From contig CP086569.2 of assembly GCA_009914755.4 (NCBI GenBank), positions 15,840,001-15,904,000 of the forward strand: DNA of 64,000 nt. The letters are read 5' to 3'. Source of the stretch: the human T2T-CHM13v2.0 reference genome, Homo sapiens. The notes under the pieces were generated by a model. The model ran no database searches and was not told where the DNA came from. It saw only the letters and a list, made by a program, of their open reading frames with translations. Below, piece after piece: positions 49,101 through 59,654 of this stretch. How positions within the stretch are numbered: position 1 is the first letter of the stretch; each line of letters begins with the position of its first letter. Both the position numbers and the translations under genes were made by a program.

Positions 49101-50291
49101 AGTTAATTAGTTAATTAAATTTTAAGGTTGCTGCACAGAGATGAGCAGCTGGCATGGAATATTAGCCACAATCATCACAATCATCTCAACCTTATTATTC
49201 TCCTTCCTCTCTTTCTCCGTGTTTTTGGGAAGAGGTGATGATCTAGAGATTCTGAAGCATGGTAACATCACATAGATATTGTTTGCTTATTAGTTCTTCT
49301 GACACCTGCTCTTCAATGGAATGAGGTTGAGAGGGTAAAAAGGAAATATAATGTAGACACATTTCCCTTTTTTAAAAATGTGACTTAGATTGATGAGAGG
49401 GCGGGGTAAACTTTTTCCTATTAAAGCAAATGTTTACTAGGGTGTCGTAACAAAGTACCACACGCTGAACGTGGTTAAAAAGTAGAACTGTATTATCTCA
49501 AAGTTCTGAGGAACTTCTGGAGTTCTGACCAAAAGTCCAATATCCAGGTGTCTGCAGGACTGAGGGCTTTGAGCAAGAATCCCTCCCAAGTCTTTTTTTC
49601 TTTATTTTTTTTTTTATTTTTTTAATGTCAGGCATTTGGCTGACAATCTCTGGCATTGCTTGCCTTTTAGACACATCACCTGGATTTTTGCTTTTATTCA
49701 CATATGTTCTTCCCTCTCTGCACATGTTGGTGTCCAAATCTCCTATTTTTATAAGGACTCTAGTAATATTGCATGGTGAGGCCAGCTAGACTTCCTGCAT
49801 TAAGTGGGGACTTGGGGAAATTTCCTGTCTGACAAGAGGACTGTAAAATGCACCAATCAGGAACTTTCCTGTGTTAAAAGAGGATTGTAAAATGCACCAA
49901 TCAGTGCTCTGTAAAATGCACCAAATAGCACTCCAAAAAACGCACCAGTCAGCACTCTGTAAAACGCACCCATCAGCAAGATTCTAAAAGTAGCCCATCA
50001 CGGGGAGGATTGTAAAAAGGGCACTCTGATAGGACAGAAATTAAACATGGGCAGGGAAAATAAGGGAATAAAAGATGGCCACCCCTGCCAGCAGCAGCAA
50101 CCTGCTCAAGTCCCCTTCCAAGCTCTGGAAGATTTGCCCTTTCGCTTTTCACATTAAACCTTGCTACTACTCACTCTTTGGGTCTGTGCCATCTTTAACA
50201 GCTGTAACACTCACCACGAAGGTCTGCAGCTCCATTCTTGAGGTCAGCAATATCACGAACCTACCAGCAGAAACCAGCTCCCCACACATCT

Positions 50292-50309
50292 TGGGGACTT
50301 GTCTGGGAT
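50292..50309 (+). promoter_or_regulatory. Primer-binding site, tRNA-Pro-like, 3 nt downstream of the 5' LTR CA terminus
   Basis: tggggacttgtctgggat against the canonical PBS-Pro tgggggctcgtccgggat (15/18). It sits immediately after ...ccccacaca-tc. Confidence 0.5.
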
Positions 50310-50425
50310 ATTGCCACGTGGTGAGTACCATCAGACCCTTTTAGCTTGCTATTCTGTCCAATTTTTTCTTAGAATTCAGGGGCTAAACACCAGGCACCTG
50401 TCAGCTAGTTAAAAGTGACTAGTGC

Positions 50426-50714
50426 TGGGGGCGGTGGCTCATGCCTGTAATCCCAGCACTTTGGGAGGCTGAGGTGGGTGGATCATGAGCTCAGGAGATT
50501 GAGACCATCCTGGCTAACATGGTGAAACACCGTCTCTACTAAAAATACAAAAAATTAGTCGGGCATGGTGGTGGGTGCCTGTGGTCCCAGCTACTGGAGA
50601 GGCTGAGGCAGGAGAATGGCATGAACCTGGGAGGCAGAGCTTGCAGTGAGCTGAGATAACACCACTGCACTCCAGCCTGGGTGACAGAGTGAGATTCCAT
50701 CTTGAAAAAAAAAA
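50426..50714 (+). mobile_element. AluS/Y (plus) inserted into the HERV leader, with a 15-bp TSD aaaagtgactagtgc
   Basis: tgggggcggtggctcatgcctgtaatcccagcactttgggaggctgaggtgggtggatcatgagctcaggagattgagaccatcctggctaacatggtgaaacaccgtctctactaaaaatacaaaaaattagtcgggcatggtgg...gcctgggtgacagagtgagattccatcttgaaaaaaaaaaaaaa. TSD copies are at 50411-50425 and 50715-50729. Confidence 0.9.
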
Positions 50715-56200: not shown

Positions 56201-56641
56201 CACTTGATCAGGAAACAGCCAGATTGGTCAAATATATAACTTCATTTGCAAGACATCAACAAAACCTTAAAAACCTACCCAAAGGATGTCACAGAGAAAA
56301 GGGAACAGAGTTGTTCCAACTGGGAGATCTAGTTTTGATCAAGTACCTCCCCTCTACCATCTCCATCTATGGTTTCTTGGTGGGAAGGACCATACACAGC
56401 AACCCTCACTACCCCCACTGCCGTTAAGCTGGCAGAGTGTACTCTTGGATTCACCACACCAGAGTTAAACTTTGGACACCCCCTGAGGAACCTGTGGGAC
56501 CATCAGCTCAGGAGTCCCAAGATCAGCCAGACCAGCCTCCATACACCATTGGAAGACTTGCATCTCCTATTTCATAAGGAAACATCCCAGACCAAAAAGG
56601 CTCCTACAGCTGATCCTGAGAAAAAAACCTTTCCTACTTAA
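53280..56641 (+). pseudogene. HERV pro-pol remnant (PR, RT, RNase H, IN), MLV-like, with multiple stops
   Basis: The PR end is LLGRDMLAKPEAIIY. The RT N-terminus is QYPLRSESHKGLQDIVRHLKVQGLVRKCSTP*NTPLLEAQKPNGQWSLV (compare MLV ...[25 protein letters not shown]). The connection region is PVAYLSKEIHILAKGWSHCL (MLV: [20 protein letters not shown]). The IN zinc finger and core are ...LLVCDDSFTNWIEAFPCKSDIAQ... (MLV: [24 protein letters not shown]), with the LQSDNHLAF variant in place of DNGPAF. The IN C-terminus is WEGPYTATLTTPTAVKL (MLV: WKGPYTVLLTTPTALKV). Confidence 0.8.
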
Positions 56642-56874
56642 AATAAATAGATGAGTGAAAACCTACATAATCTTTACCACCTCTCCTTGCCCCTTTAATG
56701 AAATCGTTTTACTGTTTCATCACATTATTAAGCAGCATACTAACCATGCTCTTTGCAGTAAGACTATATAAAGTAGCTCCTTCTGGGATGAAAATCCTAA
56801 TCACATCAACCTTTTTTCTATCATCCTTCCTTCTGATAGCAATTTACTCCTACCTTTAACTCAGACTAGATAAA

Positions 56875-58700
56875 ATGATCTCATCTTACAGGGAACACTC
56901 TTTGTCTTTCTACTTAGTCTTTGCGTATCTATCCCTCCTTTTTCCTTGGATACCCAACACAGTCTCCTCTCCCCTTCCACTACCTCCTAATTATCTCTAC
57001 AAGACTCTCAACTTAATCCACTCTCTGTTAAACCAATTAAATCCTTCCCTGGCAAATGACTGTTGGCTTTGTATCCCTCTATGAACCACTGTTTATGTTG
57101 CCACTCCCATTCCTGCAAAAAATTGTGTCTCTATTAACTTAATCTACCACACTACCACCCCCATTATGAAGGAAAATATCTTCTAAATCTGCAATCATTA
57201 GCCAACTTCCCTGTCTCTGATAGGACCAAAACTACTCTAAAAGGATGTGCTATCCAGCTTTTAAGTTCCTACCTTTCCTACCTCACCTATTACACAAGCA
57301 ATGAGAAGCCCATACATGGCCCTGTAACCATGTAAACATGTTAACTTTCCAAGCCCACTTATGCATCCAACACAACCTGTTACCAGGCCTGCCCCTAAGG
57401 AACCTAATATCCCATCAGTGTAATTACAGCCTACAACTTCAAGCCACAATTGATACTGTAATTTATTCTCACCCAAACAGCTCCATTCAGAGAGTTTGTC
57501 TGCTTCTCAGGGCCCCCAGAAATCATCACCTCCTCCCTGCTTATGAAGAGTCTGAGTTTTGTAATGGCAAACATACTCCCTCCAAGACCATTCACCCCTG
57601 GACACCCTGCAACAGCGCCCCTACCGCAAGTGAATGCCTTCTTATCCCCTCTTTAAATTACTGTCTTTAATGGTTCCTAGTAGATACAAAATGGTTTTTT
57701 TCTCCAATGGGAAAACAGAACACAGGGAACCACTCAGTTTGTTCCCAACACCCCTTTCCACCTACTCACTGGAGCTACCTTGGCAAGTACTCTAGGTGTA
57801 TGGGAAAATGAAAACAACAAACTCACACACCTTTTTAACATACACAACCAGTTCTGTCTACCCAGCCAAGGTATATTCTTATGTGGAACTTCAACATATA
57901 TCTGCCTGTCCACCAACTAGACAGACACCTGCACCTTAGTCTTCCTAAGTCTCAACACTGACATTGCCCCAGGAAATCAGACCCTATCAGTGCCCCTAAA
58001 AGCTCAAGTCCATCAGCATGGGACCATACAACGAATACCCCTACTTACAGGGTTGGAAATGGCCACTGTTACAGGAAGCAGAATAGCCAGTTTATCTCCT
58101 TCATTATCCTAATACCACACATTCTCAAAGGATTTCTCAGCAGTTTGCAAGAAATAGAAAAAAAAAATCTATCCTTACTCTACAATCCCAAATAGACTCT
58201 TTGGCCGCAGTGACTCTCCAAAACTGCTAAGGCTTAGACATCCTCATTGCTGTGAAAAGAGGACTCTGCACCTTCTTAGGGGAAGAGTGCTGTTTTTACA
58301 CGAGCCAGTCAGGAATAGTATGAGACACTGCCTGGCATTTACAGGAGAGGCTTCTGGAATCAGACAATGCTTTTCAAACACTTATACCAACCTCTAGAGT
58401 TGCACAAAATGGCTTCTCCCCTTTCTAGGTCCCATGACAGCCATCTTCCTATTACTCCCCTTCAGGCCCTGTATTTTTTACCTCCTTGTCAAATTTATTT
58501 TCCTCAGGATTGAGGCCATCGGATGGTCTGACAAATGGAAACCCAAATGAGCTTTACTCACAACTTCTACTGAGGAACCCTGGACTTACCCACTGGCCCT
58601 TTGACTGGCCTAGAGAGTTCCCCTCTGGAGGACACTACAACTGCAGGGCCCCTTCTTTGCCCCATCCAGCATGAAGTAGCTAGAGCGATCCTCACCCAGT
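56875..58700 (+). pseudogene. HERV env remnant (signal peptide, SU with CWLC, TM with immunosuppressive domain and CX6CC), with in-frame stops
   Basis: ORF 56875..57084 reads ...SLANDCWLCIPL, the SU CXXC motif. At ~58190-58330 the sequence is AAVTLQNC*GLDILIAVKRGLCTFLGEECCFYTSQSGIV*DTAWHLQERLLESDNAFQ (compare MLV [48 protein letters not shown]). Confidence 0.8.
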
Positions 58701-59654
58701 TTCCAACAGCAGTTGTGGTGTCCTGTTTAGAGGGGAGATTGAGAGGTGAGGCCAGCTAGACTTCCTGGGTCAAGTGGGGACTTGGTGAACTTTCCTGTCT
58801 TACAAGAGGATTGTAAAATGCACCAATCAGCTCTCTGTAAAATGCACCAGTCAGCACACTTTAAAACCCACCAATCAGCAGGATTTTAATAGGACAGAAA
58901 CAGAACATGTGAGGGGGCAATAATGGAATAAAAGCTGGCCACCTCAGCCAGCAGCAGCAACCTGCTCAGGTCCCTTCCATGCGGTGGAAGCTTTTTCCTT
59001 TCACTCTTCACAATAAAGCTTGCTACTGCTCACATTTTGGTTCTGTGCCATCTTTAAGAGCTGTAACACTCACCGCGAAGGTCCGAGGCTCCATTGCTGA
59101 AGTCAGCAAGACCACCACCCCACTGGCAGGAACAAACTCTGGACCCAATATTGCACTTAGAGCGGAATCTACTTCAATATGACCTCATATTAATGAATTG
59201 TTCCTGCAATAGCCATATTTTCAAATCAAATCACATTCTGAGACAGTTAGAATTAGGATTTTCACATATGGATTTGGTGCTAGGAGACATAATTCAACCC
59301 AGAACAGAAATCGTGAAAAATAAATGAGAATTTTGAACTGTAAGTGAATACGACTAGTGTAGAAAGATTCTACTGTAATAACTTTGCCAAGTTGGTCATA
59401 GCCTACTGCTGATTATGGTTTTGATGTTTTTGATTAACGTCTATTATTACGTCTACATGAGGAATGCAGTTTCTGTTTTGATATTACAAAATCTGGGAAT
59501 ATCAGTAAAATTTTATTTTATTCTATTTTTAATTTTAATTATATTTTTAATTGAAAAGCTATACTTATATACACTTGGGGTTACAATGTGACACGATTCT
59601 ATATGAATATAATGTGAAAGTATCCAGGAGAAGCTGAACTTTTATTATTATTAC

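What the first reader, a model, noticed from the sequence alone, without database searches (positions are those of the whole stretch)
49770..59147. Near-complete 9.4-kb gamma-like HERV provirus with all four gene remnants, a tRNA-Pro-like PBS, a 4-bp TSD and LTRs differing in CCAAT-repeat number
Structurally complete proviruses are a minority of HERV loci. This one retains a 5' LTR, PBS, a long leader, gag with its zinc knuckle, PR, RT, RNase H, IN, env SU (CWLC) and TM (LQNC-GLDIL immunosuppressive domain plus CX6CC), and a 3' LTR. Every reading frame is interrupted.

The LTRs have the HERV9/LTR12-type layout of tandem ...tgtaaaatgcaccaatcag... units upstream of aataaaag. In ERV9 LTRs such CCAAT units are known NF-Y-binding enhancer repeats. 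The 5' LTR has ~5 units and is 519 bp. The 3' LTR has 3 units and is 408 bp, so repeat number changed after integration.

The PBS tggggacttgtctgggat is closest to tRNA-Pro, not the tRNA-Arg of HERV9 or the tRNA-Trp of HERV-W. This points to a HUERS-P/HERV-P-type relative of the HERV9 supergroup. That is an inference. Both LTRs are flanked by atat.

The leader is long at ~1.47 kb. It contains an AluS/Y with a 15-bp TSD and a ~80-bp tandem duplication (51495-51660) just upstream of a ...tttgtttcag|ATGGG gag start that resembles a splice acceptor.
Basis: partly seen in the sequence, partly recalled or inferred. Interest (0 to 1): 0.55.

Follow-up and report, generated by a model that had tools for sequence, protein, structure and literature searches.

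The report
Old ERV-9 provirus, proline-type primer site
This is a dead but structurally complete copy of the well-known human endogenous retrovirus family ERV-9 (HERV9/LTR12), with a less common primer-binding site and short LTRs; it is an ordinary genomic fossil, not a new kind of element.

Summary
There are two LTRs (49770-50288, 519 bp; 58740-59147, 408 bp), ATAT target-site duplications, a PBS, a long leader carrying an Alu with a 15-bp TSD, remnants of gag, pro, pol and env, and a polypurine tract.

The family assignment does not hold. The internal region is HERV9 (ERV-9) itself, not a HUERS-P/HERV-P relative. It runs colinear at 86-87% identity with two real HERV9 copies. It is about 90% identical to the published HERV9 consensus over ungapped columns. 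It also shares the two in-frame stop codons of the HERV9a env consensus. HERV-W, HERV30 and HUERS-P3 consensuses fit clearly worse, and LTR9 does not match at all.

The LTR is a short LTR12-type LTR, LTR12F-like by length. The PBS is proline-type: 15/18 to the canonical sequence and 16/18 to a listed Pro variant, against 10/18 for the usual HERV9 PBS. Pro is already a recorded minor PBS type of HERV9, and I found another HERV9 5' end carrying one.

The 85-bp leader duplication and the splice-acceptor-like gag start are HERV9 family features. LTR divergence of 17% puts this copy among the oldest ERV-9 insertions. It has no coding capacity. Already known; low interest.

The parts
49766..49769 (+). 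5' target-site duplication ATAT
   Evidence: Read directly. The same 4 nt follow the 3' LTR at 59148-59151.
49770..50288 (+). 5' LTR, 519 bp, short LTR12-type (TG...CA)
   Evidence: Aligns with the 3' LTR. Aligns end to end with the LTR12-type part of the HERV9 consensus at 67% identity including gaps, about 78% over ungapped columns.
49816..49978 (+). U3 tandem CCAAT-box repeats: 44-bp unit x2, then 24-bp unit x3.9, followed by two decayed units up to about 50027
   Evidence: TRF. Intact CCAAT at 49853 and 49897. NF-Y binding to such units is documented for LTR12 in the literature; it was not tested for this copy.
50067..50074 (+). AATAAAAG TATA-like box of the ERV-9 promoter. The R-region poly(A) signal is ATTAAA at 50153-50158 (AATAAA in the 3' LTR at 59012).
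   Evidence: The position corresponds to GAATAAAAG in the HERV9 consensus.
50292..50309 (+). Primer-binding site TGGGGACTTGTCTGGGAT, tRNA-Pro type, 3 nt (TCT) after the LTR
   Evidence: 15/18 to the canonical Pro PBS and 10/18 to the HERV9 PBS tggcgaccacgaagggac. The reference sequences come from Vargiu 2016 Table S6 and text. Two of the three mismatches are CpG>TpG.
50310..51765 (+). Pre-gag leader. Splice-donor-like GTG|GTGAGT at 50320/50321 and acceptor-like TTTTTTTGTTTCAG| ending at 51765.
   Evidence: 85-86% identical to the well-supported columns of the HERV9 consensus leader over 50309-50434 and 50715-51679. Pre-gag putein tblastn hit at 50913-51734. [quoted passage not shown]
50426..50714 (+). 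Alu (S/Y-type) inserted in the leader, sense orientation. TSD AAAAGTGACTAGTGC at 50411-50425 and 50715-50729.
   Evidence: Homology to HERV9 copies and to the consensus breaks exactly here. 66-89% identical to other Alus in the window, 89% to the closest.
51491..51650 (+). 85-bp tandem duplication in the leader (1.9 copies, 80% identity)
   Evidence: TRF. Both copies are present in the HERV9 consensus DNA and in its pre-gag putein, so this is a family feature that predates integration.
51766..53272 (+). gag remnant (MA-CA-NC) across three frames. Degenerate zinc knuckles at 53048-53089 and 53120-53158.
   Evidence: tblastn with the HERV9 gag putein gives 60-80% aa identity. Pfam Gag_p30 at 52620-52757 scores 24.1 bits, below the 27.4-bit cut-off. 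Motifs.
53218..53802 (+). Protease remnant (LLDTG at 53308-53322)
   Evidence: Pfam RVP at 53263-53526. tblastn with the HERV9 pro putein gives 65.5% identity.
53695..56642 (+). pol remnant: RT (HMDD at 54151), connection/RNase H, integrase. It has a ~157-nt deletion at 54877 and a perfect 18-bp microduplication at 56149-56186.
   Evidence: Pfam RVT_1 53920-54186, RT_RNaseH_2 54505-54729, Integrase_H2C2 55499-55654, rve 55721-55990. tblastn with HERV9 pol. Deletion measured against L012 and L013. TRF.
56839..58663 (+). env remnant. SU with CWLC (57061-57072). TM with ISD (58216-58299), CX6CC (58267-58293) and membrane anchor (58413-58508).
   Evidence: Pfam TLV_coat, 86.6 bits. tblastn with HERV9 env covers aa 1-621. 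Same in-frame stops as the HERV9a env consensus. Best PDB match is the Syncytin-1 TM, E=2.9e-19.
58729..58739 (+). Polypurine tract AGAGGGGAGAT directly before the 3' LTR
   Evidence: The HERV9 consensus has AGAGGGGGGAT at the same place.
58740..59147 (+). 3' LTR, 408 bp, with three 24-bp CCAAT-type units (58812-58880). It lacks 68 nt and 42 nt that are present in the 5' LTR.
   Evidence: The missing 42-nt block has a counterpart in the HERV9 consensus LTR, and the HERV9 LTR alignment skips consensus positions 103-180 only for this LTR. This suggests deletion here rather than gain in the 5' LTR.
59148..59151 (+). 3' target-site duplication ATAT

Best explanation
This is an ancient, defective, full-length provirus of the ERV-9 (HERV9/LTR12) group of class I human endogenous retroviruses. 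A gammaretrovirus-like element integrated in the germ line, which produced the 4-bp ATAT duplication. At that time it already carried the HERV9a env with two premature stops, so it probably spread by complementation in trans or by retrotransposition rather than as an infectious virus (inferred).

Its 5' end belongs to a minority HERV9 form. The LTR is a short LTR12-type LTR without the large GC-rich U3 block and the U5 repeats of LTR12C. The primer-binding site is complementary to tRNA-Pro instead of the usual Arg/Trp-type site.

After integration the copy decayed neutrally. Each LTR changed at about 9% of its sites. The 3' LTR lost CCAAT-repeat units. An Alu landed in the leader. Pol lost about 157 nt and gained an 18-bp microduplication. 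All genes acquired stops and frameshifts.

It cannot make any retroviral protein. The only plausible residual activity is cis-regulatory. The LTRs keep two intact CCAAT (NF-Y-type) boxes each, the AATAAAAG box and a poly(A) signal. A donor-like site follows the PBS. None of this was tested here.
For: Structure.

HERV9 membership:
- Colinear with two independent HERV9 copies recovered from public contigs (L012, 9.1 kb; L013, 7.8 kb) over 50189-58749 at 86-87% identity. The only breaks are the Alu and one deletion.
- RT, CA and TM segments are 83.5%, 86.3% and 77.9% identical to the Vargiu 2016 HERV9 consensus, or 90-91% over ungapped columns.
- HERV-W gives 68.8% (RT) and 72.9% (CA). HERV30 gives 82.5% (RT) and 70.9% (TM). 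HUERS-P3 gives 63.2% (RT) and no hit for CA.
- The ISD LQNC*GLD... and GIV*D carry the same stops as the HERV9a env consensus.
- The leader, including the 85-bp duplication and the TTTCAG|ATGGGAAACACTCAGGCATC gag start, matches the HERV9 consensus.

LTR: the start TGAGAGGTGAGGCCAGCT... and the whole architecture match the HERV9 LTR consensus. There is no LTR9 hit and only short, weak LTR17 hits. It lacks the ~600-nt block of the LTR12C-like LTR of L012. LTR12F is described as the ~500-bp LTR12 subfamily.

PBS:
- 15/18 to Pro against 10/18 to the HERV9 PBS.
- Vargiu lists the PBS types of HERV9 as 'W, R, k, p, c'.
- A canonical HERV9 at chr6:38584305 (hg19) has tggggacttgtccaggat.
- Of 12 HERV9 5' ends found with a pattern that does not include the PBS, 11 have the Arg/Trp-type PBS and one (L014) has TGGGGGCTCGTCCAGGAT.

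Age: the 17.2% LTR divergence is near the top of the canonical HERV9 range of 0.9-18.5%, mean 10.3%. The 72/709 differences from conserved leader columns are all private to this copy.
Against: No Dfam/Repbase alignment could be run, so the LTR12 subfamily (LTR12F or another) is inferred from length and architecture only.

LTR identity to the available HERV9 LTR consensus is modest: 67-80% including gaps, 78-85% over ungapped columns. That consensus is a mosaic of subfamilies.

In the RT segment HERV30 is almost as close as HERV9, because HERV30 pol is itself HERV9-like. The distinction rests on gag, env and the LTR.

The defining PBS of classical ERV-9 is not met.

The Pro assignment is 15/18. 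It ties with a sequence that the Leipzig tRNA set, as cited in Vargiu's Table S6, labels Cys(GCA).

Age from LTR divergence depends on the assumed rate and can be inflated by gene conversion or indels.
Confidence: 0.9

Rival explanations
1. One reading: a HUERS-P/HERV-P-type provirus (HUERS-P3/LTR9 or a relative), identified by its tRNA-Pro PBS, that only resembles HERV9 in its LTR layout.
For: The PBS is Pro-type. The HUERS-P3 consensus also has a Pro PBS, TGGGGGCCTTGTCCAGGAT. The LTR divergence of 17% lies just below the HUERSP range of 18-32%.
Against: The HUERS-P3 consensus is only 63.2% identical in RT. It gives no blastn hit in CA. Its LTR9 gives no hit to either LTR. HERV9 gives 83-86% in the same tests. 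Env carries HERV9a-specific stops. PBS type is a weak taxonomic marker, and Pro is recorded within HERV9.
Confidence: 0.02
2. An 'LTR12F-HERV17-LTR12F'-type element: one of the ERV-W-like Catarrhine proviruses with LTR12F LTRs described by Grandi et al. 2020. On this view it belongs to the ERV-W side of the W/9 supergroup, or it is HERV30.
For: Such loci exist with ~500-bp LTR12F LTRs. The best solved-structure match of the TM is Syncytin-1. The first ~230 nt of the leader align to the HERV-W pre-gag at 70-78%. The HERV30 RT segment is 82.5% identical.
Against: HERV-W consensus: RT 68.8% and CA 72.9%, against 83.5% and 86.3% for HERV9.

HERV30: TM 70.9% against 77.9% for HERV9. Its SU shows no significant similarity over most of its length. 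Its gag gives 44-66% aa identity against 60-80% for HERV9. Its ISD, LQNRRALVLL...GTCLFLGE, differs from this copy's.

Full-length colinearity with genuine HERV9 copies, including env.
Confidence: 0.05
3. A chimeric or recombinant locus: a HERV9 interior joined secondarily to a foreign 5' LTR-PBS module, for example by recombination with a Pro-PBS virus. LTR and body would then have different histories.
For: The 18-nt PBS differs from the HERV9 consensus, while the sequence directly after it (ATTGCCACGTG|GTGAGTACC against ATCGCCAAGCG|GTGAGTACC) and the whole leader are HERV9. The LTR is further from the HERV9 consensus (about 78-85% ungapped) than the body is (about 90%). Vargiu et al. report that mosaics are common.
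Against: Both LTRs are the same type. They flank the body at the normal PPT and PBS junctions, with a matching 4-bp TSD, so the unit integrated as one provirus. The LTR is itself LTR12-type from its first bases to U5. A PBS change needs no foreign LTR, because priming by another tRNA rewrites the PBS during reverse transcription. That is established retrovirology; here it is inferred.
Confidence: 0.03

Closest known systems
HERV9 / ERV-9 proviruses (Repbase HERV9-int with LTR12 family; Vargiu 2016 taxorder 10320, env subgroup HERV9a)
   Same: Gene order, the pre-gag leader with its 85-bp duplication and donor/acceptor-like ends, the MGNTQAS gag start, two NC zinc-knuckle positions, env with CWLC, the LQNC*GLD ISD and CX6CC, the PPT and the LTR start TGAGAGGTGA. 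The U3 has CCAAT tandem repeats upstream of AATAAAAG. Identity is 86-87% to real copies and about 90% to the consensus over ungapped columns.
   Different: The PBS is Pro-type instead of TGGCGACCACGAAGGGAC. The LTR is only 408-519 bp and lacks the large GC-rich U3 block and the U5 repeats of LTR12C-type LTRs. LTR divergence is at the old extreme of the group.
LTR12F (shortest LTR12 subfamily, about 500 bp)
   Same: Length and general LTR12 architecture.
   Different: Sequence identity to the LTR12F model could not be measured here. The assignment is an inference.
HERV-W (HERV17/LTR17, source of Syncytin-1)
   Same: Same supergroup. The 5' pre-gag segment is shared, gag/pol/env are homologous, and the TM is closest to Syncytin-1 among solved structures.
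   Different: Only 69-73% nucleotide identity in RT and CA. LTR17 is not alignable except for short U5 pieces.
HUERS-P3 (LTR9)
   Same: Class I provirus with a tRNA-Pro PBS, and old.
   Different: 63% identity in RT, no detectable CA or LTR similarity, and a different env.

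Membership tests
Class I (gammaretrovirus-like) endogenous provirus | Paired LTRs bounded by TG...CA and flanked by a 4-bp target-site duplication | tested here: met
   LTRs at 49770-50288 and 58740-59147; ATAT on both sides.
Class I (gammaretrovirus-like) endogenous provirus | PBS after the 5' LTR, PPT before the 3' LTR, and gag-pro-pol-env in order with gamma-type domains | tested here: met
   PBS at 50292-50309; PPT at 58729-58739. Pfam finds Gag_p30 (sub-threshold), RVP, RVT_1, RT_RNaseH_2, Integrase_H2C2, rve and TLV_coat in order.
Class I (gammaretrovirus-like) endogenous provirus | Gamma-type Env: CWLC in SU; ISD plus CX6CC in TM | tested here: met
   CWLC at 57061; ISD at 58216; CTFLGEECC at 58267. 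TM matches the Syncytin-1, Syncytin-2 and MLV TM structures.
HERV9 / ERV-9 | Interior closer to HERV9 than to any other HERV group | tested here: met
   RT 83.5%, CA 86.3%, TM 77.9% to the HERV9 consensus. This compares with 63-73% for HERV-W and HUERS-P3 (RT, CA), and with 82.5% (RT) and 70.9% (TM) for HERV30. 86-87% colinear identity with HERV9 copies L012 and L013. Only four other groups were compared.
HERV9 / ERV-9 | HERV9a env with ISD LQNc*GLDLLTAEKGGLCTFLGE | tested here: met
   LQNC*GLDILIAVKRGLCTFLGEECC, with the stop at the same codon. The second shared stop is in GIV*D.
HERV9 / ERV-9 | LTR12-type LTR: U3 tandem repeats with CCAAT boxes, AATAAAAG box, R/U5 with AATAAA ... GCTGTAACACTCACC | tested here: met
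   Identity to the consensus LTR is only 67-80%, and the subfamily is unresolved.
HERV9 / ERV-9 | PBS of Arg/Trp type (tggcgaccacgaagggac) | tested here: not met
   10/18 only; the PBS is Pro-type at 15/18. Vargiu 2016 lists 'p' as a minor HERV9 PBS type and treats PBS type as a weak marker. Other HERV9 copies with a Pro PBS: chain 2126 and L014.
HERV9 / ERV-9 | Long pre-gag leader with donor- and acceptor-like ends | tested here: met
   50310-51765, with GTG|GTGAGT and TTTCAG|ATG. 85-86% identity to the consensus leader. Literature.
LTR12F subfamily | About 500-bp LTR12 variant | tested here: met
   519 bp for the 5' LTR; 408 bp for the 3' LTR after deletions. The length criterion comes from PMC11853044.
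LTR12F subfamily | Best match to the Dfam/Repbase LTR12F model | not testable with these tools
   No Dfam or Repbase library is available, and no LTR12F sequence was found in the paper library.
HUERS-P3 / LTR9 | tRNA-Pro PBS | tested here: met
HUERS-P3 / LTR9 | LTR9 LTRs and a HUERS-P3 interior | tested here: not met
   No blastn hit to LTR9 or to HUERS-P3 CA; RT 63.2%.
HERV-W (HERV17/LTR17) | LTR17 LTRs and a HERV17 interior | tested here: not met
   Only short LTR17 hits of 65-70%. RT 68.8% and CA 72.9%, both lower than for HERV9.
HERV30 / LTR30 | LTR30, HERV30 env (ISD LQNRRALVLLTAEKGGTCLFLGE) and HERV30 gag | tested here: not met
   SU shows no significant similarity over most of its length. 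TM is 70.9%, against 77.9% for HERV9. Gag is 44-66% aa identical, against 60-80% for HERV9. The ISD and the LTR start differ.

The most novel reading that the evidence does not exclude
This copy may represent the earliest form of ERV-9. On this reading the ancestral virus had a short, LTR12F-like LTR and used tRNA-Pro as primer. The familiar Arg/Trp-PBS, long-LTR (LTR12C-E) lineages would then have arisen later by PBS switching and by U3/U5 expansion. Loci like this one would help root the ERV-9/ERV-W/HERV30 radiation.
Probability: 0.15. Interest if true: 0.3.

Novelty: already known. Interest (0 to 1): 0.08.

Why it matters
It matters little beyond correct annotation. The locus is a textbook example of a decayed ERV-9 provirus.

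It does illustrate why PBS type is a poor family marker. The same HERV9 backbone occurs with Arg/Trp-type and Pro-type primer sites, so naming a family from the PBS alone (as in 'HERV-P') misleads.

The two LTRs keep CCAAT boxes of the kind that bind NF-Y in LTR12 elements. The locus could therefore be checked for promoter or enhancer activity in data sets where LTR12 is derepressed, such as HDAC-inhibitor treatment, testis or early embryo. Nothing here suggests that it differs from thousands of other LTR12 copies.

Tried and rejected
I re-ran it with stops masked.
- I searched Vargiu 2016 Table S1 for this exact locus by its PBS, zinc-knuckle and ISD strings. It was not found. The stored table is truncated, so absence means nothing. 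The genomic coordinates of the window remain unknown.
- A metagenome scan for the Pro-PBS-plus-spacer pattern found nothing. A second scan that did not include the PBS succeeded.
- I tested whether the other Pro-PBS HERV9 (L014) forms a sublineage with this copy. There are no shared derived sites in 709 conserved leader columns, and its 67-nt LTR fragment is not discriminating. No sublineage is claimed.
- A literature search for LTR sequence strings, to obtain an LTR12F reference, gave no hits.
- Rfam at gathering thresholds over the whole window found nothing.
- I tried to reconstruct the empty site from paralogous flanking repeats in the window. Only poly-T matches came up.
- The large protein-database, structure-prediction and fold-search tools were not used. 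The published consensuses and real HERV9 copies answered the question at lower cost.

Full report
**Observation**

The region holds a complete LTR-to-LTR provirus. Direct-repeat search and alignment give a 5' LTR at 49770-50288 (519 bp) and a 3' LTR at 58740-59147 (408 bp). Both begin with TG and end with CA, and both are flanked by ATAT (49766-49769 and 59148-59151).

Over 408 aligned columns the LTRs differ at 70 positions. That is 17.2% (K2P 0.195), or 15.2% (K2P 0.170) without CpG sites. Three indels of 68, 42 and 1 nt all lie in U3.

Tandem Repeats Finder resolves the U3 repeats. The 5' LTR has a 44-bp unit x2 and a 24-bp unit x3.9. The 3' LTR has a 24-bp unit x2.9. The 5' LTR also has two more decayed units. 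Each LTR keeps two intact CCAAT boxes.

**Internal structure**

With stops masked, Pfam finds these domains on the + strand in retroviral order:
- Gag_p30 at 52620-52757 (sub-threshold)
- RVP at 53263-53526
- RVT_1 at 53920-54186
- RT_RNaseH_2 at 54505-54729
- Integrase_H2C2 at 55499-55654
- rve at 55721-55990
- TLV_coat at 58162-58380 (86.6 bits)

Motif positions come:
- gag start MGNTQAS at 51766
- LLDTG at 53308
- HMDD at 54151
- CWLC at 57061
- ISD LQNC*GLDILIAVKRGLCTFLGEECC at 58216-58299
- CX6CC at 58267-58293
- membrane anchor at 58413-58508

Every frame is broken. There are 119-150 stops per frame, and the longest stop-free run is 125 codons. Both NC zinc knuckles are recognisable but have lost cysteines (SYQWGLQGHLIKDC; CPVY*GNHWKPHC).

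The leader holds a sense Alu at 50426-50714. Its 15-bp TSD AAAAGTGACTAGTGC lies at 50411-50425 and 50715-50729. The leader also holds an 85-bp tandem repeat at 51491-51650.

**Family**

No Dfam or Repbase tool was available. [quoted passage not shown] 2016 (PMC4724089).

Nucleotide identity to this provirus:

| Segment (window coordinates) | HERV9 | HERV30 | HERV-W | HUERS-P3 |
|---|---|---|---|---|
| RT (53686-54031) | 83.5% (91% ungapped) | 82.5% (84% ungapped) | 68.8% | 63.2% |
| CA (52240-52721) | 86.3% | not compared | 72.9% | no hit |
| TM (58180-58746) | 77.9% (90% ungapped) | 70.9% | not compared | not compared |

The HERV9 consensus contains many poorly supported inserted columns. That is why the ungapped figures are higher.

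HERV9 conceptual proteins cover pre-gag, gag, pro, pol and env colinearly. The HERV30 SU shows no significant similarity over most of its length, and HERV30 gag is more distant.

The env carries the same two in-frame stop codons as the HERV9a env consensus, in LQNc*GLD and in GIV*D. This is shared-derived evidence for membership. It also shows that env was already defective when the copy was made.

**Independent confirmation from real copies**

I scanned public metagenome contigs for the leader donor motif GGTGAGTACCATCRGACCC. The scan returned 12 HERV9 5' ends, evidently contaminating human or primate DNA.

Two long contigs (L012, 9.1 kb; L013, 7.8 kb) are colinear with the window from 50189 to 58749 at 86-87% identity. 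The only interruptions are the Alu and a ~157-nt deletion in pol at 54877.

**LTR**

The LTR start (PPT AGAGGGGAGAT, then TGAGAGGTGAGGCCAGCT...) matches the HERV9 consensus (AGAGGGGGGAT, then TGAGAGGTGAAGCCAGCT...). The 5' LTR aligns end to end with the LTR12-type consensus piece. Identity is 67% with gaps and about 78% without.

LTR9 gives no hit. LTR17 gives only short, weak U5 hits.

Compared with the LTR12C-like 3' LTR of L012, this LTR lacks the ~600-nt GC-rich block after TGAGAGGTGA. A review of LTR12 states that the subfamilies range from about 500 bp (LTR12F) to more than 1,300 bp. By length this LTR is LTR12F-like, but I could not test that against the model.

The 42-nt block and part of the 68-nt block that the 3' LTR lacks have counterparts in the HERV9 consensus. 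The difference in repeat number is therefore more likely a loss in the 3' LTR than a gain in the 5' LTR. This is an inference.

**PBS**

The PBS TGGGGACTTGTCTGGGAT matches reference sequences as follows (references in Vargiu Table S6 and text):
- 15/18 to the canonical Pro PBS tgggggctcgtccgggat
- 16/18 to the listed Pro variant tgggggctcgtctgggat
- 10/18 to the HERV9 PBS tggcgaccacgaagggac

Two of the three mismatches to Pro are CpG>TpG changes. The match also ties at 15/18 with a sequence labelled Cys(GCA) in Table S6.

The sequence right after the PBS (ATTGCCACGTG|GTGAGTACC) is homologous to the HERV9 consensus (ATCGCCAAGCG|GTGAGTACC). Only the 18-nt PBS differs.

This is a known variation:
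- Vargiu et al. give the PBS types of HERV9 as 'W, R, k, p, c'.
- They list a canonical HERV9 at chr6:38584305 (hg19) with tggggacttgtccaggat.
- Among my 12 HERV9 5' ends, 11 have the Arg/Trp-type PBS and one (L014) has TGGGGGCTCGTCCAGGAT.

L014 shares no derived leader substitutions with this copy (0 of 709 conserved columns). I therefore do not claim a Pro-PBS sublineage.

A PBS can be rewritten when a different tRNA primes reverse transcription, or by recombination between co-packaged genomes. That is established retrovirology. Its application here is an inference.

**Leader**

The leader (50310-51765) is 85-86% identical to the well-supported columns of the HERV9 consensus leader. The homology is broken only by the Alu.

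Both copies of the 85-bp duplication, and the TTTCAG|ATGGGAAACACTCAGGCATC junction, are in the consensus. They are family features.

Grandi et al. 2020 (PMC6995185) describe the pre-gag region of HERV-W, HERV-9 and HERV-30 as a putative intron with conserved donor and acceptor sites. Here the donor-like site is GTG|GTGAGT at 50320/50321, and the acceptor-like site ends at 51765.

**Age and state**

The LTR divergence of 17.2% lies near the top of the canonical HERV9 range in Vargiu's Table S5 (mean 10.3%, range 0.9-18.5%).

The leader differs from conserved HERV9 columns at 72 of 709 positions, about 10%, and all differences are private. This agrees with about 9% change per LTR since integration.

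With commonly used rates (about 0.2% LTR-LTR divergence per My halved, or 2.2e-9 per site per year) this gives roughly 40 My. That places the copy in the earliest ERV-9 wave. The figure depends on the assumed rate.

**Verdict**

This is an ordinary, very old, non-coding HERV9/ERV-9 provirus with a short LTR12-type LTR and the minor Pro-type PBS. The proposed HUERS-P/HERV-P affiliation is not. Nothing about the element lies outside what is already described for this family.

Noticed in passing
window 10544-10762 (- strand): An isolated 219-bp fragment is 83% identical to the provirus pre-gag segment 50981-51197. No other HERV9 sequence lies around it. It could be a stray fragment of another ERV-9/W-like leader, or a sign that this part of the leader derives from a small independent repeat.
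   Followed up: partly
window 56149-56186: A perfect 18-bp tandem duplication (CTGTAGGGATGACCTTTT x2.1) lies inside the integrase remnant. It is absent from the HERV9 consensus, so it is a young, locus-specific microduplication.
   Followed up: partly
window ~54877: About 157 nt of pol (RT to RNase H connection) are missing relative to two real HERV9 copies (L012, L013) and to the consensus.
   Followed up: yes
window 49765-49776 and 59147-59156: The 5' junction reads AATAT|TGCATGG and the 3' junction CCCA|ATATTGCACTT, so 9 nt (AATATTGCA) are shared. The first 7 nt of the 5' LTR differ at three adjacent positions from the 3' LTR and from the HERV9 consensus (TGAGAGG). As a result they copy the host bases that follow the TSD. 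This could be chance or a micro-conversion; it is unexplained.
   Followed up: no
window 23447-23854 (+): A weak RT-like tblastn hit: 25% identity to HERV9 pol aa 123-250, E=0.003. It is probably a LINE or another decayed retroelement.
   Followed up: no
window 1237-1540, 2560-2850, 12004-12255, 27195-27478, 29346-29631, 40416-40707 and others: There are many Alu copies, 66-89% identical to the Alu in the provirus leader. The window is AT-rich (GC 34-42%) and has no Rfam hit at gathering thresholds.
   Followed up: no
L014 (ERZ1034264 contig, 1280 bp), positions ~1182-1199 on the - strand: Another HERV9 5' end with a near-perfect Pro PBS (TGGGGGCTCGTCCAGGAT). Its leader is 92-97% identical to nine of the ten Arg/Trp-PBS HERV9 copies. 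The tenth, the 479-nt L010 fragment, aligns poorly (60%). This shows that Pro-type PBS occurs on a canonical, less diverged HERV9 backbone as well.
   Followed up: partly
L012 8452-9138: The 3' LTR of this canonical HERV9 copy has a ~600-nt GC-rich block between TGAGAGGTGA and the 40-bp repeats. The window LTR lacks the block entirely, which shows how the LTR12 subfamilies differ.
   Followed up: partly
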